A stretch of DNA of 64,000 bases, taken from contig JBFWNU010000012.1 of the NCBI GenBank assembly GCA_050250895.1, forward strand, positions 32,001 through 96,000, in the 5' to 3' direction. Under the pieces are notes generated by a model. The model saw only the letters and a list, made by a program, of their open reading frames with translations. It did no database searches and had not been told where the DNA came from. Both the position numbers and the translations under genes were made by a program. Source of the DNA: Vulcanimicrobiota bacterium (GTDB taxonomy: Bacteria; Vulcanimicrobiota; Xenobia; Xenobiales; JADMJV01). Of the stretch, positions 31,314-62,520 are shown one piece after another. Every line of letters starts with the position of its first letter. Position 1 is the first letter of the stretch.

Positions 31314-34300
31314 ATGGGCCAATTTGTGTCTCCGCTCGGAGCTCAGCTTAAAACTCCTCCCGTGGCCAAGGCTAACGGCACCCCGCGAAGAGAGGACAGC
31401 GACCAGGCACTTCCGGTCGAGAGCTTCGAAGCCAGCCAACCGCAACCCCAGGCCCGACCCGCCGAGACCGCTCGCGTGGCTCCTGAGCCCGAGCCCAGGG
31501 CAACCGAGACGTTTCTCGAGCGTCCCACGACGCCAGCGCAACCACCGAACACCCCCACCACCATTCCGGTGTTCGAGCAACCTGTTTCCGAAGAGGTCCA
31601 AGCCGTCACCGGCTCTGGCGGCGAGAGTTTGGCCGAGGTGGCCAAGCGCGTGGCCGCCGAAGTCGATCGAGCCGAGGCCGCCAAAGCCAGCCAGCCTACC
31701 GCCGCGACCACTTCCACCGAGCTTCCCAAGGCCGAGTCTGCCAAGCGGGCCGAACTGGCCTCGAACATTCGCACCCATCGCAGCGTCGGCAGCGCTCTGC
31801 TGCACTTCGTGACCGGTGACCCCCTCAAGGTTTACAAGAAAGAGCTCGATGCCATCAACAAGGCCGAGGCCATGGCTGCCAAGCTCACGACGCCGGCCGA
31901 ATTCCAGGCCAAAACGGCCGAGTTCAAGCAACGGCTGGCCAACGGCGAAACCCTCGAAGACCTGCGGGTCGAGGCCTACGCGGTGGCTCGCGAAGCCTGC
32001 AAGCAGGCCACCGGTATGCGGCCCTACGATTGTCAGATCGTGGGCGGTCTGGCCACCGACTCCGGCCGCATCGCCGAGATGGCGACCGGCGAGGGCAAGA
32101 CCCTGATGGCCGTCATGCCGCTCTACCTGAATGCTCTGGCCGGCAAGGGCGCCCATCTGGTCACGGTCAACGACACTCTGGCTGCTCGCGACGCCGAGTG
32201 GATGGGCCCTGCCTACAAGTTGCTCGGGGTTAGCGTGGGCACCGTGCTTGAAGGCATGACCCCCGAAGATAAACGAGCCGGCTACAACGCCGACATCACC
32301 TACACCACCGACCGCACCATCGGCTTTGATTATCTGCGCGACCGCACCGTTCGCAACCCTGCCCAGAGAGTGCAGCGCGAGCCCTTCTTCGCCCTCATTG
32401 ACGAGGTGGACGAGGTGCTGATCGACGAGGCTCGCACCCCACTCATCATTTCGGCTCAGGGTGAACCGGCCGCCGACGAGTATCGCACCTTCAGCGAGAT
32501 TGTCGACCACCTGACCCCGGGTGAAGACTTCTACGTCGACCGCAAGCAGCACTCGGCCTGGCTGAGCGAGACCGGTCTTGACAACGTCGAGAACGAACTG
32601 GCCTTGCGCCAGGCTCAAGCCACCTACAACCAGGCTGTGCAAGAGCACGGCGAGTCGTCGCCCCAGGCCACCGAGGCCAAACAGTGGATCGACAACGCCA
32701 CCAGGATGCGAGATGCTATCAAGGCGGAAGGGGCCGCCTACAAGGTCCACCAGGACTATCTCGAGAAGAAGCCTGGCTGGTTCAAGCGCATCTTCAACTT
32801 CGTCACCGGCAAGCAGGCCGAAGGCTACGACAAAGCCACCGAAAAAGAACTCAAGGCCAGCTACGAAGCGGCCAAAGACGCCCACGAAGAGCTCAAAGGC
32901 AGCTTCCCCGAGTATCAGCTCTATTCTGAGGATAACGCCGGTCGAGTGCGATTTCTCGACGCCAGCCTCAAAGCCCGCGCTCTGTTCACCGATGAAGACG
33001 ACTATATCGTCGAGAACGGCGAGGTCAAGATCGTCGACGAGAACAAGGGCCGCACCTCCGACGGGCGTCGCTACAACGATGGGCTGCACCAGGCTCTAGA
33101 GGCTCGCGAAGGGGTCGAGATCAAGCCCGAGCAACGGGCGGTGGCCTCGATCACCTATCCCAACCTGTTCAAGAAATACCCGCGGTTGGCCGGCATGAGC
33201 GGAACCGCCGCCACCTCGGCCGGCGAGTTCGAGAAGCTCTACGACCTTTCGGTGGTCCAGATTCCTACCAACTTGCAGTTCGAGACCAATCCGGCCGACC
33301 CGACCGCCGCTCCGCGCCACAACCGTATCGACGAGGCCGATGTCATCTATCCCTCGTTGAAAGCCAAGTTCGATGGCGTGGTCCAAGAGGCGGTCAAGAA
33401 TTTCGAAGAGGGCGTCCCGATTCTGATCGGAACGCTTTCGGTCAAGGCCAATAAGTATGTGGCCTATCAACTGGTCAAGGCCGGCGTGCCCAAAGACGCC
33501 ATCCAGGTGCTCAACGCCGAAAGCGTGCGCGGCGATAAGCAAGCCGAGAACGAGATCATCGAGAAGGCAGGCATTTCGGGCATGGTCACGGTGGCCACCA
33601 ATATGGCCGGCCGGGGCGCCAACATCAAGCCCGACCTGACCAACTACAAAAAGATCGCCATGGCGGCTATCGACGCCGCCAACGGCCAGAGCAAGCCCGT
33701 CATCGTGCACATGAAGAACGCCAAAGAGGCCCAGCGCCTGGCTGAGTGGCTCGACAACCGGGCTTCCTATGCAGTGGCCGACCAGCCTCAAGACGTGCTG
33801 CCCGGTCCCGGTCAGGTCTTGATCCGCGCCGGTCACGAGGGCCCGGTGCCCGAGGGTGCGACCCTGCTCGATTATCACGATTATCCCACCGGCGGTCTTT
33901 ACGTCATCGGCACCGAGCGAGCCAATTCGCGCCGCATCGACGATCAGTTGATCGGTCGCTCGGCCCGCCAGGGTGCGCCCGGCCGTAGCAAGTTCTTCCT
34001 CAGCCTGCAAGACGACCTCTTGCGCGTGTTCGGCGGCGAAAATCTGTCGCCGTTACTCGACCTTTTCGGTGACTCGTCCAAGGGAGTTCAATCGAATCTG
34101 GCCGACAAACTGGTGGCCCAGGCCCAGTCTCGGGTCGAGTCGATGCACTTCGAGGTGCGTGACAACACCACCAAATACGACGAGGTGCTCAACAAGCAAC
34201 GCGACACCTTTTATGCTTACCGCGACTCGATTCTGGGTCCGGCCCCGGGTCAGGAAGGCGAACAAGCCGACGTCAAAGGCCTGATGCTCAGTTACGCCGT

Positions 34301-34898
34301 CAACTCGATCACCGATGAGGTGCTCGAGCATCTACCCAAGCACCGCAATCAAACCCCCGAAGATGTCCGCAAGGCTCTGACCGAGGTTTCGGCCAAATAC
34401 AACTTCCCCCTCGAAGACCTCAATGTCTTCGGCAAGATCAAGACCTCTGAACTCGAGACCCAGGTGGCGAGCTACGTCGAAGACAAGGTGACTTCGGCGA
34501 TGGGTGTGTTCGAAGAGCACGGGCTCAAGCTCGAGGATGGAGCCCGAGTCGGCATGTTGACCATTCTCGACACCAACTGGACCGACCATCTCGAAATCAT
34601 GGAAGCGCTCAAGGATGGTATCCAGTGGGAGTCCATCGCCGGGCGCAAACCCGAGGATGCCTTCATCGAGCGAGGCTTCGAGGTCTTCAAAGAGATGATT
34701 ACCAATATCGAGCGCAGTTGCACCTCCCAACTGGTTTCTGAACTGTTGGCCGGCGCCGATATGATCAAAAAGGGTGTCATCAAGGTGCCACCCGTCCAGC
34801 GGCCGGCACCCCAGTCGGGCCTCACCCAGACCTGGGCGCGCGACGACGACGGCAAGATGCGAGCCGAGTGGAAGGCCGAGGGAGCCGCCACCCATTAG
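31314..34898 (+). CDS. secA: Atypical SecA-family translocase ATPase (probable accessory paralog)
   Basis: EMATGEGKT, DEVD..LIDEARTPLIIS, ATNMAGRG, RIDDQLIGRSARQG; long N-extension, PPXD insertion, no C-terminal CPCGSG Zn motif. Confidence 0.85.
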   Translation: MGQFVSPLGAQLKTPPVAKANGTPRREDSDQALPVESFEASQPQPQARPAETARVAPEPEPRATETFLERPTTPAQPPNTPTTIPVFEQPVSEEVQAVTGSGGESLAEVAKRVAAEVDRAEAAKASQPTAATTSTELPKAESAKRAELASNIRTHRSVGSALLHFVTGDPLKVYKKELDAINKAEAMAAKLTTPAEFQAKTAEFKQRLANGETLEDLRVEAYAVAREACKQATGMRPYDCQIVGGLATDSGRIAEMATGEGKTLMAVMPLYLNALAGKGAHLVTVNDTLAARDAEWMGPAYKLLGVSVGTVLEGMTPEDKRAGYNADITYTTDRTIGFDYLRDRTVRNPAQRVQREPFFALIDEVDEVLIDEARTPLIISAQGEPAADEYRTFSEIVDHLTPGEDFYVDRKQHSAWLSETGLDNVENELALRQAQATYNQAVQEHGESSPQATEAKQWIDNATRMRDAIKAEGAAYKVHQDYLEKKPGWFKRIFNFVTGKQAEGYDKATEKELKASYEAAKDAHEELKGSFPEYQLYSEDNAGRVRFLDASLKARALFTDEDDYIVENGEVKIVDENKGRTSDGRRYNDGLHQALEAREGVEIKPEQRAVASITYPNLFKKYPRLAGMSGTAATSAGEFEKLYDLSVVQIPTNLQFETNPADPTAAPRHNRIDEADVIYPSLKAKFDGVVQEAVKNFEEGVPILIGTLSVKANKYVAYQLVKAGVPKDAIQVLNAESVRGDKQAENEIIEKAGISGMVTVATNMAGRGANIKPDLTNYKKIAMAAIDAANGQSKPVIVHMKNAKEAQRLAEWLDNRASYAVADQPQDVLPGPGQVLIRAGHEGPVPEGATLLDYHDYPTGGLYVIGTERANSRRIDDQLIGRSARQGAPGRSKFFLSLQDDLLRVFGGENLSPLLDLFGDSSKGVQSNLADKLVAQAQSRVESMHFEVRDNTTKYDEVLNKQRDTFYAYRDSILGPAPGQEGEQADVKGLMLSYAVNSITDEVLEHLPKHRNQTPEDVRKALTEVSAKYNFPLEDLNVFGKIKTSELETQVASYVEDKVTSAMGVFEEHGLKLEDGARVGMLTILDTNWTDHLEIMEALKDGIQWESIAGRKPEDAFIERGFEVFKEMITNIERSCTSQLVSELLAGADMIKKGVIKVPPVQRPAPQSGLTQTWARDDDGKMRAEWKAEGAATH

Positions 34899-35301
34899 CA
34901 TCGTTTCCTCCGAGCAGGAGGGGTTCGCCGAGATCAACGTCACGCCCCTGACTGACGTGTTGTTGGTCCTGCTGATCATCTTCTTGATCACGGCCGGAGG
35001 ATTGACCGCGCCCCGCCATGGGGTGAAGGTACCGGAAGTGGTCACCCGCACCCAGGCCGAGAAGAGCATGGTGATCGTCGACATCACGGCCGATGGTCGT
35101 ATCTTTCTCGGCTCCGACGAACTCTCGCCGCGACTGCTCGAAGGGCGCCTGACCCTCGAGCAAGAGTTGCGCCAGACCGATCGGGTGGTCATTAACGCCG
35201 ATCAGGACACGGCCTACGCGGTGGTGTCCGAGGTCTTGCGGGCCGCGGATCGGGTCGGTTTGCACAAGATCTCGCTAGCCACCAGGCTGGTCAAGCCATG
35301 A
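34894..35301 (+). CDS. exbD: ExbD/TolR-family protein (probable ATT start)
   Basis: INVTPLTDVLLVLLIIF, INAD..Y..V; no nearby ATG/GTG/TTG in frame; SD GAGGGAG. Confidence 0.8.
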   Translation: MSIVSSEQEGFAEINVTPLTDVLLVLLIIFLITAGGLTAPRHGVKVPEVVTRTQAEKSMVIVDITADGRIFLGSDELSPRLLEGRLTLEQELRQTDRVVINADQDTAYAVVSEVLRAADRVGLHKISLATRLVKP

Positions 35302-35711
35302 GGCGCCGCCGCGGGGTCAGCCCCCCCGAGAGTGAACCGACCATGGCGGCCATCAACATCACGCCCTTGACCGATGTGCTCCTGGTCTTGTTGATTATCT
35401 TTCTGGTGGCTGCCACCGCCGCCCACCAGAACGTCTTCCAACTGGATCTCGCGGGTGAAGTCGCCAGTGTCGAGGTCTCGGACGCGAGGGTGGCGGTAGT
35501 GGGCATTCTGGCCGACGGTTCGCTGCGCCATGAGGGGCAGGCGTCGAGCCTGGAAGAACTGGCGGCTCGCCTAGGGTCTGATGAGCAGGTGGTGCTCGAG
35601 CCCGTGCCCGAGGCCCGTTATGGGCGCCTGGTCGAGGTGATGGATTGGCTCCGCAGCCGCGGCTTCGAGAAGGTTAGCCTGGCACAGGCACGCGAGGCTG
35701 AGTCCCGATGA
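35298..35711 (+). CDS. exbD: ExbD/TolR-family protein
   Basis: INITPLTDVLLVLLIIF; YG..V.VMD. Confidence 0.85.
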   Translation: MRRRRGVSPPESEPTMAAINITPLTDVLLVLLIIFLVAATAAHQNVFQLDLAGEVASVEVSDARVAVVGILADGSLRHEGQASSLEELAARLGSDEQVVLEPVPEARYGRLVEVMDWLRSRGFEKVSLAQAREAESR

Positions 35712-56198: not shown

Positions 56199-57797
56199 AT
56201 GGCTCGCTTGAAAATGATTCTCGTCTGCCTGGTGCTGTTGGTCGGGTGTAAGACCAACCCCGGGCAGAGTGGCTCGAAGGTGCCCCCGGTACCGGCCGAC
56301 AACGTGCTGGTGGTGGCCAAGCCCGACGACCCGGTGGGGCTTGACCCGGCCAATGTCACCGATGCCGAATCGTCGCAGGTTTGCCGCAGCTTGTATGACA
56401 CGCTGGTGCAGTATGCCCGCGACTCGATGGAGGTTGAGCCGGCCCTGGCCGAGTCGTGGGAGACGTCGGAAGATGGCCTGGTCTGGACCTTCAAGCTGCG
56501 CCAGGGAGTGAAGTTTCACGACGGCACGCCCTTTGACGCCGAGGCGGTCAAGGTCAACTTCGAGCGCCAGTTCAGGCCCGACCATCCGCTGCGATTTGCG
56601 GGCAACAAGTTTCTCTACTGGACGGACATCTGGGGCTCGCCCAGCAAACTGAGCCAGGTCGAAGTGGTCGACGAGCACACCGTCAAGCTGCATCTTACCC
56701 AACCGGTGGCCCCGTTCTTGCAAAATCTGGCCATGCCGTTCTTCGCCATCGTCTCGCCCACAGCTCTCCAAGAGCATAAGGAAGACTTCTTCAAACACCC
56801 GGTCGGCACGGGCGCCTTTAAGTTCGTCGAGTGGAAAGAGCGCGAGAAGATCGTGCTGGCGGCCAATGCCGACTATTGGGGGGGCAAGCCAGCCCTCGAC
56901 CAGGTGATTTTCAAGCCCGTCAAGGACAGCACTTCACGCCAGTTGCAGCTCGAGAAGGGCGCCGTGGGGCTGATTACCGGGCTTTTGCTCGAGAACGTCA
57001 AGCGTCTACAAGACAACCCGGCCGTCACCGTCGAGACCCAGGCCGGGATGAATATCGGCTTCGTGGCCATCAACAACCAGCACAAACCCTTTGACGACCC
57101 GCGGGTGCGCCAGGCACTGTATCACGCCATCGATCGCAAGACCATCGTGGATGAGCTTTATCAGGGGCTGGCCGAGGTGGCCGACTCGCCGCTGCCGCCG
57201 GCGGTGTGGGGTCGGGCCGAACTCGAAGACTACGACTATGATCCCGAGAAGGCCAAGAAGCTGCTGGCCGAAGCCGGCTATCCCGACGGTTTCAAGACCG
57301 AACTGTGGTATATGAGCGCTCCCCGGCCTTATTTTCCCGAGCCGAAGGTGACCGCCGAAGTGCTGGGCTCGATGCTCAAGAACGTCGGCATCGAAGCCGA
57401 ACTATCGGCGGTCGACTGGAGCGTCTACCTCGAAGAGATTGGCAAGGGCCATCATCAACTGGCGCTGGGTGGCTGGATCGGCGACCACGGCGACCCTGAC
57501 AATTATCTCTATATCTTGTTTGACTCGGACAACCTCGACACCGAGCGGGGTGGCACCAACGTCTGCCTTTACTCTAACCCGCAGGTCCATCAAGAGCTGA
57601 CCCAGGCCCAGCAAGAGCTCAACCGCACCGACCGCGAGAAGCTCTATGTCAAGGCCCAGCAGCAGATCCACGAGGATTGCCCCTGGGTGCCGCTGGTCTA
57701 CGCCTCGCAGACGGCGGCCCACCATCCCAAGCTCAAAGGCTTCACCCTTCATCCCACCGGCACGCTGTTGCTCGACAAGGTGCACTGGGAGAAGTGA
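56199..57797 (+). CDS. dppA: Peptide ABC transporter substrate-binding lipoprotein (DppA-like)
   Basis: Lipobox LVGC; LAESWE.S.DG..WTF.LR.GVKFHDG. Confidence 0.9.
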   Translation: MARLKMILVCLVLLVGCKTNPGQSGSKVPPVPADNVLVVAKPDDPVGLDPANVTDAESSQVCRSLYDTLVQYARDSMEVEPALAESWETSEDGLVWTFKLRQGVKFHDGTPFDAEAVKVNFERQFRPDHPLRFAGNKFLYWTDIWGSPSKLSQVEVVDEHTVKLHLTQPVAPFLQNLAMPFFAIVSPTALQEHKEDFFKHPVGTGAFKFVEWKEREKIVLAANADYWGGKPALDQVIFKPVKDSTSRQLQLEKGAVGLITGLLLENVKRLQDNPAVTVETQAGMNIGFVAINNQHKPFDDPRVRQALYHAIDRKTIVDELYQGLAEVADSPLPPAVWGRAELEDYDYDPEKAKKLLAEAGYPDGFKTELWYMSAPRPYFPEPKVTAEVLGSMLKNVGIEAELSAVDWSVYLEEIGKGHHQLALGGWIGDHGDPDNYLYILFDSDNLDTERGGTNVCLYSNPQVHQELTQAQQELNRTDREKLYVKAQQQIHEDCPWVPLVYASQTAAHHPKLKGFTLHPTGTLLLDKVHWEK

Positions 57798-58792
57798 TCC
57801 GCTATCTGGGTCGTCGCCTGTTGGAGACGCTCCCGGTGGTGCTGGGCATCAGCCTGATCGTCTTCTTGCTGTTGCGATTGGTGCCGGGCGATCCGGTGCG
57901 TATCATGCTCGGTGAGCGGGCCAATCCCGATCAGGTCGAGCGAGTGCGCCACGAGCTAGGACTGGATCGCCCCTGGCCGGTTCAGTATTTCGAGTTCATG
58001 CGCCGGGCCGTCCAGCTGGATCTGGGCCGCTCCATCAAGCGCAATTCGCTGGTCACCGAAGAGCTGAGCCGGGCCTTTCCGGCCACCCTCGAGCTGACTT
58101 TGGCGGCGGTGTTCTTGGCCACCCTGGTCGGCGTTGGTCTGGGCACGCTGGCGGCGCTCAAACGCAATAGTTGGGCTGACGCGTTGTGCACAGCCATCTC
58201 GCTTTCGGGCATCTCGATTCCTATCTTCTGGTTGGGACTGTGCTTTATCTTGATGTTTCCGGTAGGGCTGGGGTGGTTTCATTTCGGGGGGCGCACCGAC
58301 TTTTCGTTCGACACGGTGACCGGGCTCTACCTCATCGACTCTTTGCTGGCGGGGCGGCTCGACATCTTTTGGGACGTGCTCTCGCATTTGATCCTGCCGG
58401 CCGTCACCCTGGCCACCGTTCCCACCGCCATGATCGCGCGCATGACCCGCTCGGCCTTGCTCGAGGTGCTGGGTCAAGACTACATTCGGACCGCCCGCGC
58501 CAAGGGGTTGGACCCGCGGGCGGTCCTGTTCGGACACGCCTTGCCCAACGCCATGCTACCGATCGTCACGGTGGTGGGCCTTCAGTTTGGCTATCTGCTC
58601 GGGGGGGCGGTGCTGACCGAAACCGTCTTTCAGTGGCCGGGCCTGGGCGTGTTGCTGCTCGAGGCGGTGAAAGAACGCGACTACCCTCTGGTCCAGGGCT
58701 CGATTCTGTTGATTGCCATCAGCTTCTCGCTGGTCAACCTGGCCGTCGACCTGGCTTATGCCTTTTTCGACCCGAGGATTCGCTATGAGTGA
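57794..58792 (+). CDS. dppB: Peptide ABC permease (DppB-like)
   Basis: PGDP, DYIRTARAKG, TETVF.WPG, DPRI. Confidence 0.92.
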   Translation: MIRYLGRRLLETLPVVLGISLIVFLLLRLVPGDPVRIMLGERANPDQVERVRHELGLDRPWPVQYFEFMRRAVQLDLGRSIKRNSLVTEELSRAFPATLELTLAAVFLATLVGVGLGTLAALKRNSWADALCTAISLSGISIPIFWLGLCFILMFPVGLGWFHFGGRTDFSFDTVTGLYLIDSLLAGRLDIFWDVLSHLILPAVTLATVPTAMIARMTRSALLEVLGQDYIRTARAKGLDPRAVLFGHALPNAMLPIVTVVGLQFGYLLGGAVLTETVFQWPGLGVLLLEAVKERDYPLVQGSILLIAISFSLVNLAVDLAYAFFDPRIRYE

Positions 58793-59657
58793 GGCAACCC
58801 CCACCCAATTGGTGTGGGCCAAGCTCAAGCGCAGCCGGCCGGCGTTGCTGGGGGCGGTCCTGTTGGCGCTGTTTTTTTTCACGGCTTTGTTCGCGCCCTG
58901 GCTTGCTCCTGACGGACCCGACGACCAGGACCTCCATCGGCGTTTCCAGGCTCCGAGCCTTAGCTCGGTGGAAGGGCATTTTCCCTTCTTGCTGGGCACC
59001 GACAATGTCGGCCGTGATTTGCTCAGTCGAGTCATTCTAGGCGCTCGCATCTCGCTGCGGGTGGGCTTTTTCGCGGTGGCTATCTCGGCCGTCTTCGGCA
59101 TTCTGCTGGGAGCCGTGGCCGGCTACTTCGGAGCAGCGCTCGAAAGCCTCATCATGCGCTGCATGGATATCATGCTGGCCTTTCCCAGTATATTGCTGGC
59201 CATCGCCATCGTGACGGTGCTAGGTAATAGTCTGACCAACGCCATGATCGCGGTGGGCATCGTAGGCGTTCCGGTGTTTGCCCGGTTGACCCGGGCGGCC
59301 GTGCTGGGGGTCAAGAGCATGGACTACGTCGAGGCGGCCCGGGCCCAGGGGGCTTCGCACGCCCGGGTGCTGTTCGTGCATGTCTTGCCCAACTGTGTCA
59401 ATGCCCTCATCGTTCAGGCGACCCTGAGCACTGGCACGGCCGTGCTCGACGCTGCCGGGCTGTCTTTTTTGGGGCTGGGGGCCAAACCGCCCGCTCCCGA
59501 GTGGGGCACCATGCTGAGTGACACTTTTCGTTACTACGAAACGGCTCCCTGGTGTGTGGTGGCACCCGGTTTGGCCATCATGGGAATGGTTCTGGGCTTC
59601 AATCTGCTGGGTGACGGATTAAGAGATGCCCTCGACCCTCGTCTGAAGGAGGATTGA
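58785..59657 (+). CDS. dppC: Peptide ABC permease (DppC-like)
   Basis: LGTD..GRD, YVEAARA.GA, LSFLGLG..PEWG, DGLRDALDPR. Confidence 0.92.
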   Translation: MSEATPTQLVWAKLKRSRPALLGAVLLALFFFTALFAPWLAPDGPDDQDLHRRFQAPSLSSVEGHFPFLLGTDNVGRDLLSRVILGARISLRVGFFAVAISAVFGILLGAVAGYFGAALESLIMRCMDIMLAFPSILLAIAIVTVLGNSLTNAMIAVGIVGVPVFARLTRAAVLGVKSMDYVEAARAQGASHARVLFVHVLPNCVNALIVQATLSTGTAVLDAAGLSFLGLGAKPPAPEWGTMLSDTFRYYETAPWCVVAPGLAIMGMVLGFNLLGDGLRDALDPRLKED

Positions 59658-59781
59658 GGGGGAGAAGCTGGAACTCGATTCAAAGTCTGAGACCGGCCCA
59701 ACCACCTGTTGGGTGCTCGGCGGCAACGTTAGAGCCTTATCGGGTACAGACAACAATGGTGTGTTTGGAGGTAGGTTACAA

Positions 59782-59988
59782 ATGAAAAACCTTATTTCTT
59801 TGGTTTTGGGCGGGCTGCTTCTCGGCGGTCTGATGTTCGGTTGCGGTGGCAGTACGCCCCCCGCCGACAACAACAGCCCCGCAGTTAGCACTCCCGCCGA
59901 AGGGGGCGTCGAGATGTCCCCTGCTCCTGAGGGCGGCGAGACTCCCGCTATGGAAGAAACCCCGATGTCCGAGGGAGATTCCCATTAG
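59782..59988 (+). CDS. Small acidic lipoprotein
   Basis: SD GGAGGT; lipobox MFGC; low-complexity tail. Confidence 0.75.
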   Translation: MKNLISLVLGGLLLGGLMFGCGGSTPPADNNSPAVSTPAEGGVEMSPAPEGGETPAMEETPMSEGDSH

Positions 59989-60700
59989 GGCGACTCTCAT
60001 CGCCGGAGTCCTGGCGGCAGGCCTGTGCCTGCTGCCAGGCTGCAATCCGCAGGGGCAGTCGGCTCAGTCAACGCCCACTCCGGTTTCTTCTCCCGTTCGG
60101 GTGTCGGTGGAGGATCAGCCCAACTCTGTGGGCCTGACCCCGTTGCCGGGCAAGTCTGCTCCCGAGGTGACCGAGAAGAAAGTGGTCAAGATGACCACCG
60201 ATGCAGGCGAGCTGACCATCGAGGTCTATCCTCAGGCGGCCCCCAACGCGGCCAAGCGCTTTATAGAACTGGTCGAGGCAGGCTTTTACGACAATACCCC
60301 GATCTTCCGGGTGGTCCGTGCACCTCAGCCGTTCGTGGCCCAGTTCGGGATCAACTGGCGCGACGACTTTCCCCAGTGGCAAGAAAAGAATTTTGATGAC
60401 GATCCGACCTATTTCAAGCTGGATCGGGGCACCCTGGCTTTCGCCAAAGCCGGGCCCAACACCAACAGTACTCAAGTGTTCATCAACTTTGGCGACAACA
60501 GCAATCTGGCTTCGCCCGAATACAACTTTACCACCTTCGGCAGGGTGGTCGAGGGTCTTGACGTCATCGACAAATTCGTGCCCACCGGTTCCGAGAGCAT
60601 GGAACTCGAGCAGGGCCCGCTTTGGGAAGATGGCGAGAAGTACCTCAAGAGCATCGAAGAGAAGCCGACTATGATCACTAAAGCCGAGGTCGTCCAGTAG
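59984..60700 (+). CDS. Cyclophilin-type peptidyl-prolyl isomerase lipoprotein (probable ATT start)
   Basis: GFYD..FRV..FVAQFG, TQVFIN, FG.VVEG; lipobox LPGC 20 residues from ATT. Confidence 0.85.
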   Translation: MRATLIAGVLAAGLCLLPGCNPQGQSAQSTPTPVSSPVRVSVEDQPNSVGLTPLPGKSAPEVTEKKVVKMTTDAGELTIEVYPQAAPNAAKRFIELVEAGFYDNTPIFRVVRAPQPFVAQFGINWRDDFPQWQEKNFDDDPTYFKLDRGTLAFAKAGPNTNSTQVFINFGDNSNLASPEYNFTTFGRVVEGLDVIDKFVPTGSESMELEQGPLWEDGEKYLKSIEEKPTMITKAEVVQ

Positions 60701-61749
60701 CTACTCTGGTTCGCGTCGAGTGCGGCTTTCCGCCTCACTATTACTCCCAAGAAGAGCTTATCGACGCCCTCAAGGAATTCTGGGCCGAGAAGGTCTTCAA
60801 TCTAGAACGCCTCGAGCAGTTCCATCGCAACGTGTTGGTGGAGGGCCGCCATCTGGCTCTCGCCCGCGAGCAATACCGCGAACTGAAAGGCTTTGGCGAC
60901 CGCAACACCGCCTGGATCGAGGTGGCCACCGAGCTGGCTACCGAGGTGGTGGGCAGGTTGCTAGAACGGTCTGGCTGTTCACCCGAACAGCTGGGCCTTT
61001 TTGCTTTCACGACCGTGACCGGTCTGGCCGTGCCCTCGCTCGAGGCTCGTTTGATGAACCGGCTGCCTTTACCCCGCAGCCTGCGGCGCATGCCGCTGTT
61101 TGGCCTGGGTTGTCTGGCTGGGGCGGCGGGGGTAGCCCGGGCGGCCGATTCGTTGGCTGCCTATCCTGACAAGGCGGCCATCATGCTGGCCGTCGAGCTG
61201 TGCTCGTTGACCCTGCAGGCCGAGGATTTTTCGGTGGCCAACCTGGTGGCCAGCGGGCTCTTCGGCGATGGGGCAGCGGCCGCTTTGCTGGTGGGCGATG
61301 AACATCCCCTGGCCGGGCAGGGGCCGAGAGTGCTGGCTACAGCCTCCGATTTCTATCCTGACAGCGAGCGGGTCATGGGTTGGGATATCACCGACAATGG
61401 CTTCAAGATCGTGTTGGCCAACAACGTGCCCGACTATGCCCGTCACCAGGTGGCCGATGGAGTGCGTGCCTTTTTGGGCGAGCAAGGGTTGGCCATCGAG
61501 GACATCGGCTGGTGGATCACCCATCCCGGCGGGCCCAAGGTGATGTCTTCGTTGTGCGAGGGGTTGGGTTTGCCCGACGAAGCCCTCGAGCTATCACGCC
61601 AGAGCCTGGCTCGGGTGGGCAATATGTCGTCTGCTTCGGTGTTGTTCATTCTCGACGAGGTGATGCGTCAGGCCAAACCCGGAGACTATGGGCTCTTGAT
61701 GGCGATGGGTCCGGCCTTCTGCTCGGAGCTGGTCTTGCTGCGATGGTGA
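60697..61749 (+). CDS. Type III polyketide synthase (start probably GTA 60697 or CTG 60706)
   Basis: Triad GLGC, HPGG, GNMSS; conserved FPPHYYSQ N-terminus upstream of the first canonical start. Confidence 0.9.
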   Translation, partial: VATLVRVECGFPPHYYSQEELIDALKEFWAEKVFNLERLEQFHRNVLVEGRHLALAREQYRELKGFGDRNTAWIEVATELATEVVGRLLERSGCSPEQLGLFAFTTVTGLAVPSLEARLMNRLPLPRSLRRMPLFGLGCLAGAAGVARAADSLAAYPDKAAIMLAVELCSLTLQAEDFSVANLVASGLFGDGAAAALLVGDEHPLAGQGPRVLATASDFYPDSERVMGWDITDNGFKIVLANNVPDYARHQVADGVRAFLGEQGLAIEDIGWWITHPGGPKVMSSLCEGLGLPDEALELSRQSLARVGNMSSASVLFILDEVMRQAKPGDYGLLMAMGPAFCSELVLLRW

Positions 61750-62279
61750 CTCCGGCGGTCTTCTCGGTGCTGGTGGTGGCCATGGCTTGTCAGCGGTTGT
61801 GGGAGCTATCGCGAAGCGCCCGCAACGAGGCGACTCTGCGAGCCCGGGGGGGCTACGAAGTGGGGGGCGGCCATTTCTGGGTGATGCGTCTGGTCCATAC
61901 CGGCTGGTTGCTCGGTTGCCTGCTCGAGGTCTGGTGGGCTCCCGTCTCCTGGCCGGGCCTGGCGGTGCTGGGGTGGCTGGGGCTGGTGCTGGGTCAGAGC
62001 CTTCGCTATGCGGCCATTCGTCAGCTGGGTTCACGCTGGACCGTCCGAGCCATGGTGGTGCCCGACGAGAGAGTTGTATCCGGAGGGGTCTTTCGCTATC
62101 TACGCCACCCCAACTATCTTGGGGTGGTCATCGAACTGGCCGGCTTTCCCTTGATCGGGGGCTGTGTCAGGACGGCCCTAGTTTTTTCCTTGGCTAATGC
62201 CCTCCTCTTGAAGGTGCGCATCGCGGCCGAGGAAAAGGCTCTTCGAGAGGAAACAGATTATGGCCAGGCCTTCGGCTGA
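61743..62279 (+). CDS. Isoprenylcysteine-carboxyl-methyltransferase family (BpsB/SrsB-like)
   Basis: LG.RW.VR, G.FRYLRHPNY, RI.AEE.AL. Confidence 0.88.
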   Translation: MVTPAVFSVLVVAMACQRLWELSRSARNEATLRARGGYEVGGGHFWVMRLVHTGWLLGCLLEVWWAPVSWPGLAVLGWLGLVLGQSLRYAAIRQLGSRWTVRAMVVPDERVVSGGVFRYLRHPNYLGVVIELAGFPLIGGCVRTALVFSLANALLLKVRIAAEEKALREETDYGQAFG

Positions 62280-62520
62280 AGTTGGTGAGCTGATCACCGA
62301 GATTCTGACCCACGAGTGTGGGGTCAAAAAGGCTATCACAGACGACAGCCTGTTGGCTGAGGAGCTGGGTCTTGACTCGGTCGGGATGCTAGCCCTGGCC
62401 CTGGGCCTCGAAAACCACTACCAGATGAAGCTGGGTGAAGACGCTCAGAACCCGCCTCGCTCGGTGGGCGAACTGCGCCGGCTGGTGGAGAGTCGATTGG
62501 AGCAGCGTGAAGTTTCTTGA
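62260..62520 (+). CDS. Acyl carrier protein
   Basis: LGLDSV phosphopantetheine site. Confidence 0.88.
   Translation: MARPSAEVGELITEILTHECGVKKAITDDSLLAEELGLDSVGMLALALGLENHYQMKLGEDAQNPPRSVGELRRLVESRLEQREVS

What the first reader, a model, noticed from the sequence alone, without database searches (positions are those of the whole stretch)
59971..59988. Second AUU start with the same junction (GAGGGAG-N6-ATTAG) for the cyclophilin
Seen: as at secA/exbD, the upstream gene ends CC-CAT-TAG after GAGGGAG. ATT 59984 gives a textbook lipoprotein signal MRATLIAGVLAAGLCLLPG-C, and no canonical in-frame start lies within 45 codons upstream. Changing ATT to ATG would destroy the upstream stop, so the same error twice is unlikely. 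Inference: a recurring ATTAG stop-start coupling mode.
Basis: partly seen in the sequence, partly recalled or inferred. Interest (0 to 1): 0.75.

Follow-up and report, generated by a model that had tools for sequence, protein, structure and literature searches.

The report
ATT start codon overlapping upstream stop
A secreted protein-folding enzyme gene in an uncultured sludge bacterium most likely begins at the rare start codon ATT, placed on top of the previous gene's stop codon, which is a rare but known kind of weak start that gene finders miss.

Summary
GAGGGAG (59971-77), ATT (59984-86) and the upstream TAG (59986-88) lie as described. The nearest in-frame ATG/GTG/TTG are GTG 59846, 46 codons upstream, and GTG 60101, 39 codons downstream.

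ATT 59984 is the best start for a cyclophilin lipoprotein:
- GGAG lies 6 nt upstream, at this genome's preferred spacing.
- 12 of 14 relatives' ORFs begin with a signal peptide ending in Cys.
- The upstream GTG extension looks non-coding.
- Public gene calls truncate the protein.

At secA/exbD the ATT aligns exactly with the ATG of the same-genus ortholog. A third ATTAG junction lies on contig C4.

ATTAG shows no genome-wide enrichment. It is not a special mode. It belongs to a low-frequency use of near-cognate starts, mostly CTG in CTGA overlaps. Two of three CTGA junctions tested are conserved in the sister species.

No initiation data exist. This scan noted similar ATT/CTG overlap starts earlier in other phyla. 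Verdict: a new member of a known kind, of moderate interest.

The parts
59782..59988 (+). Upstream 68-codon ORF: small acidic, Pro-rich lipoprotein (MKNLISLVLGGLLLGGLMFGC...SEGDSH*), ending CAT TAG
   Evidence: No Pfam family. Of 13 differences to the ~95% strain listed at 59806-59955, 10 fall on its third codon positions, and the indels there are 3 nt long. G001 has an acidic ORF in the same place.
59971..59977 (+). Shine-Dalgarno-like GAGGGAG inside the end of the upstream ORF; its GGAG ends 6 nt before ATT 59984
   Evidence: At 726 confident starts in this genome, GGAG peaks at spacings of 5-8 nt.
59984..59986 (+). Proposed ATT initiation codon; its last T is the first base of the upstream TAG, a 5-nt gene overlap
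59986..59988 (+). TAG stop of the upstream ORF
59984..60700 (+). Cyclophilin-type peptidyl-prolyl isomerase gene, 238 codons: signal peptide with Cys at codon 20 (60041-60043), a Pro/Ser-rich linker, and the PF00160 domain at residues 68-198
   Evidence: Pfam E=3e-27. Of 23 listed differences to the ~95% strain at 60133-60565, 21 are at third codon positions.
60010..60039 (+). 13-bp hairpin (one G-U pair, 4-nt loop) in the signal-peptide coding region, starting at nucleotide 27 of the ORF
   Evidence: the 111-nt junction folds at -55.6 kcal/mol, z=-4.03, and 0 of 200 shuffles fold as well. The stem uses the disfavoured codons GCA and CCA. Its role is unknown.
34878..34898 (+). Second junction: GAGGGAG-N9-ATT overlapping the TAG of the SecA-family gene (31314-34898)
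34894..35301 (+). exbD gene starting at ATT 34894; followed by a second exbD (35298-35711) through an ATGA overlap
   Evidence: Pfam ExbD covers residues 10-131, while the first downstream canonical codon is codon 21, inside the membrane helix. The ATG of the G001 ortholog aligns exactly with the ATT.
60697..61749 (+). Type III polyketide synthase gene directly after the cyclophilin stop; no canonical start (GTA 60697 overlaps TAG as GTAG; CTG 60706)
   Evidence: Chal_sti_synt_N matches from residue 2. The junction CAGTAGCTACTCTG is identical in G001. The ATG/GTG/TTG of 4 other orthologs align with GTA.

Best explanation
The gene at 59984-60700 encodes an exported, probably lipid-anchored, cyclophilin. 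Its translation starts at AUU 59984 with initiator tRNA.

A GGAG 6 nt upstream, inside the last codons of a small upstream lipoprotein gene, positions the ribosome. The AUU shares its last base with that gene's UAG stop. Ribosomes finishing the upstream ORF are therefore already on the site, and probably supply much of the initiation by termination-reinitiation coupling. A weak start then yields a low output tied to the upstream gene.

The same design is used at secA/exbD and at one lipoprotein gene on contig C4. It is one case of a sporadic use of near-cognate starts (mostly CUG in CUGA overlaps) in this Eremiobacterota-like genome.

Shown: the sequence anatomy, the coding frames, homology of the N-terminus, and the lack of any usable canonical start. 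Inferred: initiation at AUU, its coupling to termination, and a low output.
For: 1. No usable canonical start.
- GTG 59846 would overlap the upstream ORF by 143 nt.
- That stretch scores -0.44 per codon in the cyclophilin frame against +0.09 in the upstream frame.
- 9 of the 11 listed strain differences at 59853-59955 hit second codon positions of the cyclophilin frame.
- Downstream GTG or ATG starts remove the signal peptide.

2. The N-terminus is homologous coding sequence.
- 12 of 14 relatives' ORFs that I displayed start with a hydrophobic segment ending in Cys. These came from the 10 of 20 loci that lie on the + strand.
- Same-genus G001 reads MNKRLLVVSALSAGLFLLPGC from a GTG one codon upstream of our ATT position.
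- A 94%-identical public protein, P0002, reads MRETPIRATLIAGVLAAGLCLLPGC.

3. SD spacing of 6 nt matches the genome's peak of 5-8 nt.

4. The gene is under purifying selection: 21 of 23 listed differences are at third positions.

5. The junction is covered by contigs from 4 runs in 3 studies, one of them an RNA library, with no difference listed at 59956-60132.

6. Parallel cases.
- The exbD ATT aligns exactly with the ortholog's ATG.
- The C4 lipoprotein has an in-frame stop 4 codons before its ATT, and its orthologs start with ATG plus a lipobox.
- The HAD-phosphatase CTG aligns with TTG/GTG in 3 relatives and within one residue of the TTG in the fourth (G001); all four are TTGA/GTGA overlaps.
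- The HrpB and PPTase CTGA junctions are conserved in G001.

7. The tight junction is conserved: G001 has GTGAATAA here and TGATG at exbD.
Against: - There is no ribosome-profiling, proteomic or reporter evidence.
- The start cannot be seen in the mature protein, because the signal peptide is cleaved.
- ATT 59978 and ATC 59999 are also in frame.
- There is no genome-wide enrichment of ATT at overlaps or behind SD sites.
- My junction scans missed this very junction, because its codon scores are low: upstream ORF 0.05-0.06, first 30 cyclophilin codons -0.13.
- G001 and the P0002 strain apparently use a canonical start nearby, so ATT is not conserved beyond close strains.
- The read table was truncated (198 rows hidden) and held contigs only, so identity at the five junction bases is inferred from the absence of a listed row.
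- Near-cognate starts also occur away from overlaps, so coupling is not required by the data.
Confidence: 0.6

Rival explanations
1. Translation starts at a downstream canonical codon (GTG 60101, 60107 or 60128, or ATG 60192), giving a cytoplasmic cyclophilin. The signal-like stretch would be an untranslated leader that happens to be open.
For: Gene callers chose exactly these starts: P0123 (199 aa), P0001 (197 aa) and P0121 (190 aa). The first 30 codons after the ATT score -0.13 in my codon model. ATG 60192 lies just before the Pfam domain.
Against: The signal and linker stretch is conserved as protein in G001 (AGL-LLPGC) and is identical over 43 residues in P0002, whose rest is 94% identical. 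12 of 14 relatives' ORFs have a signal ending in Cys. The three callers disagree with one another, which is typical of a missing true start.
Confidence: 0.12
2. Initiation occurs at another non-canonical codon next to it: ATT 59978 (MPIRATL...) or ATC 59999 (MAGVLAAG...).
For: Both are in frame. They put 21 or 14 residues before the Cys, against 16-23 in the orthologs.
Against: ATT 59978 directly abuts GGAG, and spacings of 0-3 nt are rare at confident starts: 2, 2, 2 and 3 of 726. ATC 59999 lies 21 nt from GGAG and would leave no charged residue in the n-region.
Confidence: 0.12
3. The gene starts at the upstream GTG 59846 and overlaps the small ORF by 143 nt.
For: It is the first canonical codon of the open frame.
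Against: The codon score is -0.44 in that frame, and the stretch contains AGA, AGG, CGA, CTA and TTA codons. 9 of 11 listed strain differences fall on its second codon positions. It would put 65 residues before the lipobox Cys, against 16-23 in the orthologs.
Confidence: 0.03
4. A programmed +1 frameshift at CAU-UAG, helped by the upstream GGAG as in prfB, fuses the small ORF to the cyclophilin, and SecA to ExbD.
For: An in-frame stop lies in the A site with an SD-like element upstream. The downstream frame is +1.
Against: A tRNA-His on CAU cannot re-pair with AUU. The GGAG ends 5 nt before the P-site codon, against 3 nt in prfB (recalled). Orthologs have independent starts: ATG and GTG with TGATG and GTGAATAA junctions. 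A SecA-ExbD fusion has no known counterpart.
Confidence: 0.03
5. Assembly or base-calling error: the real codon is ATG or GTG.
For: The genome looks like a metagenome-assembled one (17 contigs). The three ATTAG junctions share CCATTAG, which could hint at a motif-linked error.
Against: ATG would delete the upstream stop at all three sites. Independent contigs from 3 studies, including an Illumina RNA library, cover the site with no listed difference. P0002 keeps Ile at this codon.
Confidence: 0.03

Closest known systems
E. coli thrS-infC junction (UAA GGU AUU) and pcnB: AUU-initiated genes
   Same: [quoted passage not shown] In reporters of the infC junction, about half of the downstream translation was attributed to reinitiation (passages read in PMC3592434). 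Weak, IF3-sensitive initiation sets a low output.
   Different: Here the AUU overlaps the stop: ATTAG is a 5-nt gene overlap. [quoted passage not shown] The genes concerned are not translation factors, and no autoregulatory logic is apparent.
Termination-reinitiation coupling at ATGA / TGATG overlaps (Huber et al. 2019, PMC6728339; review PMC12548453)
   Same: A same-strand gene pair, overlapping stop and start, and an SD inside the upstream gene. This genome has 795 canonical NTGA junctions with both frames coding: 393 ATGA, 271 GTGA and 131 TTGA.
   Different: The restart codon is near-cognate (AUU or CUG). A term search of the 2025 review found no AUU, CUG or near-cognate mention. For PMC6728339 I saw only the search listing and abstract.
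Streptomyces sigR GTC start and infC ATC start, repressed by IF3 (PMC5472188, passages read)
   Same: A non-canonical start in a high-GC bacterium that annotation pipelines misplace. One of the two infC copies here has AAAGGAG 9 nt before an in-frame ATC.
   Different: No regulation by IF3 is shown here. The codon and the overlap geometry differ.

Membership tests
Cyclophilin-type peptidyl-prolyl isomerase (PF00160) | Match to the family profile above its curated cut-off | tested here: met
   96.3 bits against a 21.7-bit cut-off, E=3e-27, residues 68-198.
Bacterial lipoprotein (signal peptidase II substrate) | Short N-terminal signal with a charged n-region, a hydrophobic core and a lipobox ending in an invariant Cys | tested here: inconclusive
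   MRATLIAGVLAAGLCLLPG-C has all the parts, but Pro at -2 is atypical (lipobox rule recalled, not from a call). The Cys is kept in 12 of 14 relatives' ORFs. No signal-peptide predictor was available.
Genes initiated at AUU (infC / pcnB type) | No canonical in-frame start compatible with the conserved N-terminus | tested here: met
Genes initiated at AUU (infC / pcnB type) | Shine-Dalgarno element at functional spacing from the AUU | tested here: met
   GGAG 6 nt upstream; the genome's peak is 5-8 nt.
Genes initiated at AUU (infC / pcnB type) | The non-canonical codon is kept among relatives | tested here: inconclusive
   No difference is listed in the ~95% strain, but the table is truncated. 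P0002 has Ile there but an annotated Met 5 codons upstream. G001 uses GTG.
Genes initiated at AUU (infC / pcnB type) | Initiation at the AUU shown experimentally | not testable with these tools
   The runs held only assembled contigs. No ribosome profiling or proteomics was available.
Translational coupling by termination-reinitiation | Same-strand pair with overlapping or nearly adjacent stop and start | tested here: met
   ATTAG overlap. The tight junction is kept in G001. One RNA-library contig spans 59693-60932, which does not prove a single transcript.
Translational coupling by termination-reinitiation | Downstream translation depends on upstream translation | not testable with these tools
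   This needs a reporter with a premature stop in the upstream ORF.
prfB-type programmed +1 frameshift | P-site tRNA can re-pair in the +1 frame at a slow stop codon | tested here: not met
   CAU to AUU gives no re-pairing for tRNA-His (read from the sequence).

The most novel reading that the evidence does not exclude
Post-termination ribosomes in this lineage, and perhaps widely in little-studied phyla, restart on near-cognate codons that touch the stop codon: AUU in AUUAG, CUG in CUGA, possibly GUA in GUAG. On this reading stop-start overlap relaxes start-codon stringency. Such junctions would then persist over long evolutionary times as a way to set weak, coupled expression.
Probability: 0.3. 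Interest if true: 0.7.

Novelty: new member of a known kind. Interest (0 to 1): 0.42.

Why it matters
Practical: three public gene calls for this protein start at three different downstream GTGs, and all lose the export signal. exbD, the polyketide synthase and about ten CTGA genes would be truncated in the same way, some losing catalytic residues. For example, the DxD motif of the HAD phosphatase lies at residues 9-11, ahead of the first canonical codon at codon 29.

Conceptual: this genome offers a compact set of natural junctions for asking whether termination-coupled restart tolerates near-cognate codons better than de novo initiation. The set is 3 ATTAG and about 10 CTGA junctions, two of them kept in a sister species at 60-64% protein identity. 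A term search of the 2025 coupling review found no mention of this question.

Tried and rejected
1. I first read '8 of 8 orphan TGA junctions have C before TGA' as significant. This is circular, because A, G or T there would make a canonical start. I replaced it with the isolated-fraction table:
- canonical NTGA 109 of 468
- CTGA 8 of 85
- NTAG/NTAA 4 of 148
- other NNT 1 of 204
- ATT 1 of 16
CTGA against NTAR gives p=0.033, and against all background p=0.0008. ATT gives p=0.14.

2. The per-codon SD enrichment test at coding boundaries gave ATT 4 of 54 and CTG 15 of 211, against 553 of 8804 overall. There is no signal.

3. A relaxed junction scan gave 123 orphans of 1672. Most are false: the real ATG lies 16-35 codons further on.

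4. The metagenome scan for closer relatives found nothing closer than 69% identity, and that match was partial.

5. Rfam found no family at 57000-62500.

6. The promoter and terminator scan found nothing on the + strand between the genes.

7. The hairpin at +27 is not a family feature. G001 has a 7-bp stem at +26, but 9 other orthologs show no consistent stem. The exbD and C4 junctions fold no better than shuffles, z=0.15 and 0.17.

8. Initiator tRNA: one ordinary gene, with the C1xA72 mismatch, three G-C pairs in the anticodon stem and a CAU anticodon. No special initiator exists.

9. I did not compare IF3 fidelity residues. I could not recall the positions reliably, and the figure listing them is a supplement.

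10. Runs with small word shares (0.05-0.17) say nothing about habitat.

Full report
**What is there**

The window is G000:C12:32001-96000 of a 9.5-Mb, 63% G+C, 17-contig genome. Its closest named relatives are metagenome-assembled genomes labelled Vulcanimicrobiota or Eremiobacteraeota.

At 59971-59988 the sequence reads GAGGGAG ATTCCC ATTAG. A 68-codon ORF (59782-59988) encodes a small acidic lipoprotein-like protein and ends CAT TAG. In the +1 frame, ATT 59984 opens a 238-codon frame ending at 60700. Residues 68-198 of that frame are a cyclophilin domain (PF00160, E=3e-27).

The only in-frame ATG/GTG/TTG codons nearby are GTG 59846, 46 codons upstream, and GTG 60101, 60107 and 60128 and ATG 60192 downstream. 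I add two points: a second in-frame ATT lies at 59978, and the lipobox is L-P-G-C.

**Why the canonical options fail**

The 46-codon extension from GTG 59846 is not coding in the cyclophilin frame.
- It scores -0.44 per codon in my codon log-odds model, trained on this genome. The upstream ORF's frame scores +0.09 over the same bases.
- Contigs of a roughly 95%-identical strain were found in 4 runs of 3 studies. Of the 11 differences listed at 59853-59955, 9 lie on third positions of the upstream ORF, which are second positions of the cyclophilin frame.
- The two indels there are 3 nt long.

Downstream starts delete the signal peptide. Yet 12 of the 14 relatives' ORFs that I displayed begin with a hydrophobic segment ending in Cys. 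These ORFs came from the 10 of 20 fetched loci that lie on the + strand; the other 10 loci were not displayed.

The same-genus genome G001 reads MNKRLLVVSALSAGLFLLPGC from a GTG one codon upstream of our ATT position. That GTG overlaps an acidic upstream ORF as GTGAATAA. A 94%-identical public protein (P0002) reads MRETPIRATLIAGVLAAGLCLLPGC and matches the window over the whole signal and linker.

Public gene calls for this gene or its 98% relative start at three different downstream GTGs, giving 199, 197 and 190 residues. None includes the signal.

The gene body is under purifying selection: 21 of 23 listed differences at 60133-60565 are at third positions. Only 40 of 238 difference rows were shown, so all these counts refer to listed rows.

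**Why ATT 59984**

At 726 confident starts in this genome, GGAG peaks at 5-8 nt from the start codon, with 23, 39, 35 and 18 cases. It is rare at 0-3 nt. ATT 59984 is 6 nt from GGAG. ATT 59978 is 0 nt away and ATC 59999 is 21 nt away.

ATT 59984 puts 19 residues before the Cys, with an Arg in the n-region. The orthologs have 16-23.

No difference is listed at 59956-60132 in any of the four runs. Two short contigs that span the junction have 10 of their 11 differences accounted for elsewhere. An assembly error is therefore unlikely, though the truncated table does not exclude one.

**The parallel junctions**

secA/exbD:
- The upstream gene is a SecA-family protein ending CAT TAG.
- The ExbD Pfam match starts at residue 10 counted from ATT 34894. 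The next canonical codon is codon 21, inside the membrane helix.
- The upstream GTG 34774 extension scores -0.70.
- The G001 ortholog starts MQAVEEPEHGFAAINVTPL, which is 13 residues before INVTPL, exactly as from our ATT. Its ATG sits in a TGATG overlap.
- The spacer from GGAG is 9 nt here, not 6.

A third ATTAG junction lies on contig C4, in front of a 642-residue lipoprotein with a weak GH26 match.
- An in-frame TGA lies 4 codons before the ATT.
- The next canonical codon would leave only 7 residues before the lipobox Cys.
- Orthologs start with ATG followed by a lipobox.

**Is ATTAG a 'mode'?**

The evidence does not support this.
- Among 473 junctions where an NNT codon overlaps a stop and both frames look coding, ATT accounts for 28. 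Three of these are isolated from canonical codons, which is no more than GAT or TTT.
- The isolated fraction is 1 of 16 for ATT against 1 of 204 for other NNT codons, p=0.14.
- An SD motif precedes 4 of 54 boundary ATT codons, against 6.3% overall.
- An SD plus ATT plus an overlapping stop occurs 687 times genome-wide. In 77 cases both ORFs are long, and 6 pass my coding filter. Three of those 6 have a canonical codon 1-2 codons away.

These scans under-count. The cyclophilin junction itself failed my score cut-offs.

**The wider pattern**

Of 921 tight junctions, 14 have no canonical codon from -15 to +20 codons.
- Eight are CTGA.
- One is the exbD ATTAG.
- One is the GTAG between the cyclophilin and the polyketide synthase.
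- The other four (three CTAG and one GCTGA) were not followed up.

For six of the eight CTGA genes, the Pfam match begins upstream of the first canonical codon. Examples:
- HAD phosphatase: catalytic DxD at residues 9-11, next canonical codon at codon 29.
- HrpB-like helicase: the next canonical codon lies inside the P-loop.
- Phosphopantetheinyl transferase.

I tested three CTGA genes in relatives.
- The HAD CTG aligns with TTG, TTG and GTG in three relatives, and within one residue of the TTG in the fourth (G001). All four sit in TTGA or GTGA overlaps. Compared with G001, the change is a synonymous GTT-to-GTC in the upstream gene.
- The HrpB and PPTase junctions are CTGA in G001 too, at 60-64% protein identity. 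In-frame stops lie 7 codons and 1 codon upstream there.

The isolated fraction of CTGA (8 of 85) lies between canonical NTGA (109 of 468) and non-start codons (4 of 148, p=0.033). Further CTGA candidates turned up.

Near-cognate candidates also occur away from overlaps: a CTG directly after an in-frame stop in a YbaK-like gene, and an ATC in another. The data therefore do not show that overlap is required.

**Machinery**

The initiator tRNA is ordinary.

There are two infC copies.
- One has AAAGGAG 9 nt before an in-frame ATC, as described for Streptomyces infC (PMC5472188, passages read).
- The other has an ATG preceded by a 10-codon upstream ORF with its own SD and an ATGA overlap.

I did not compare IF3 fidelity residues.

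**Mechanism proposed**

The SD positions the ribosome. The AUU is reached by a +1-nt shift of the P site from CAU after release at UAG. For comparison, the shift is +2 at AUGA and +5 at UGAUG. This geometry is my reading of the sequence.

Reinitiation and de novo initiation probably both contribute, as measured for the infC junction in E. coli (PMC3592434, passages read). [quoted passage not shown] ATTAG is a 5-nt overlap that only an NNT start allows.

A 13-bp hairpin begins at nucleotide 27 of the ORF. The region folds with z=-4.03, and 0 of 200 shuffles fold as well. The stem uses two disfavoured codons. It might hold a post-termination ribosome near the weak start. The other two ATTAG junctions have no such structure, so this stays a side observation.

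**Literature**

Term searches found no AUU, CUG or near-cognate mention in the 2025 coupling review (PMC12548453). They also found no non-canonical-start mention in a 2026 preprint on short overlaps.

Searches for CTGA/ATGA/GTGA/TTGA with 'overlap', for 'CUG start codon' with coupling and for Eremiobacterota with 'start codon' returned nothing on this pattern. The library lacks most subscription journals and all supplements, so this is not proof of absence.

Earlier notes of this scan describe an ATTAA start in an Omnitrophota genome, CTGA starts in a Dormibacterota genome, and similar cases. They agree with my reading. I did not test them.

**Verdict**

ATT 59984 as the start is likely (about 0.6). 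The 'ATTAG mode' is an over-reading of a sporadic, known kind of weak start. It is a new member of a known kind, of moderate interest, with real annotation consequences.

Noticed in passing
window 60697-60710 (junction of the cyclophilin stop and the type III polyketide synthase): The PKS has no canonical start. Its Pfam N-domain matches from residue 2, counted from GTA 60697, which overlaps the TAG as GTAG. The junction CAGTAGCTACTCTG is identical in the sister species. The ATG/GTG/TTG of four other orthologs align with the GTA, and GAGG lies 7 nt before it. CTG 60706 is the alternative start.
   Followed up: partly
window 60010-60039: A 13-bp hairpin in the signal-peptide coding region, starting at nucleotide 27 of the ORF. 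The region folds with z=-4.03. The stem uses the disfavoured codons GCA and CCA. G001 has a 7-bp stem at nucleotide 26 with a different sequence.
   Followed up: partly
G000:C5:474583-474837 (-) and G000:C4:51571-51822 (+) (loci L037, L038): There are two infC (IF3) genes. One has AAAGGAG 9 nt before an in-frame ATC. The other has an ATG preceded by a 10-codon upstream ORF (MRSFLLGAKK*) with its own SD and an ATGA overlap.
   Followed up: partly
G000 contigs C1-C4 (loci L118-L125, L234): About ten genes have a CTG overlapping the upstream TGA (CTGA) as their only plausible start. They include a HAD phosphatase, an HrpB-like helicase, a phosphopantetheinyl transferase, a class-III aminotransferase and an Lhr-like helicase.
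   Followed up: partly
G000:C3, locus L233 (- strand): An ApbA/PanE-like reductase whose Rossmann motif begins 5 residues after a GTA that overlaps the upstream TAG (GTAG). No canonical start lies nearby. This is a second GTAG case beside the PKS.
   Followed up: no
window 31314-34898: The SecA-family protein is 1194 residues long. It has about 170 residues before the first Pfam match, and the DEAD-like domain is stretched over residues 170-640.
   Followed up: no
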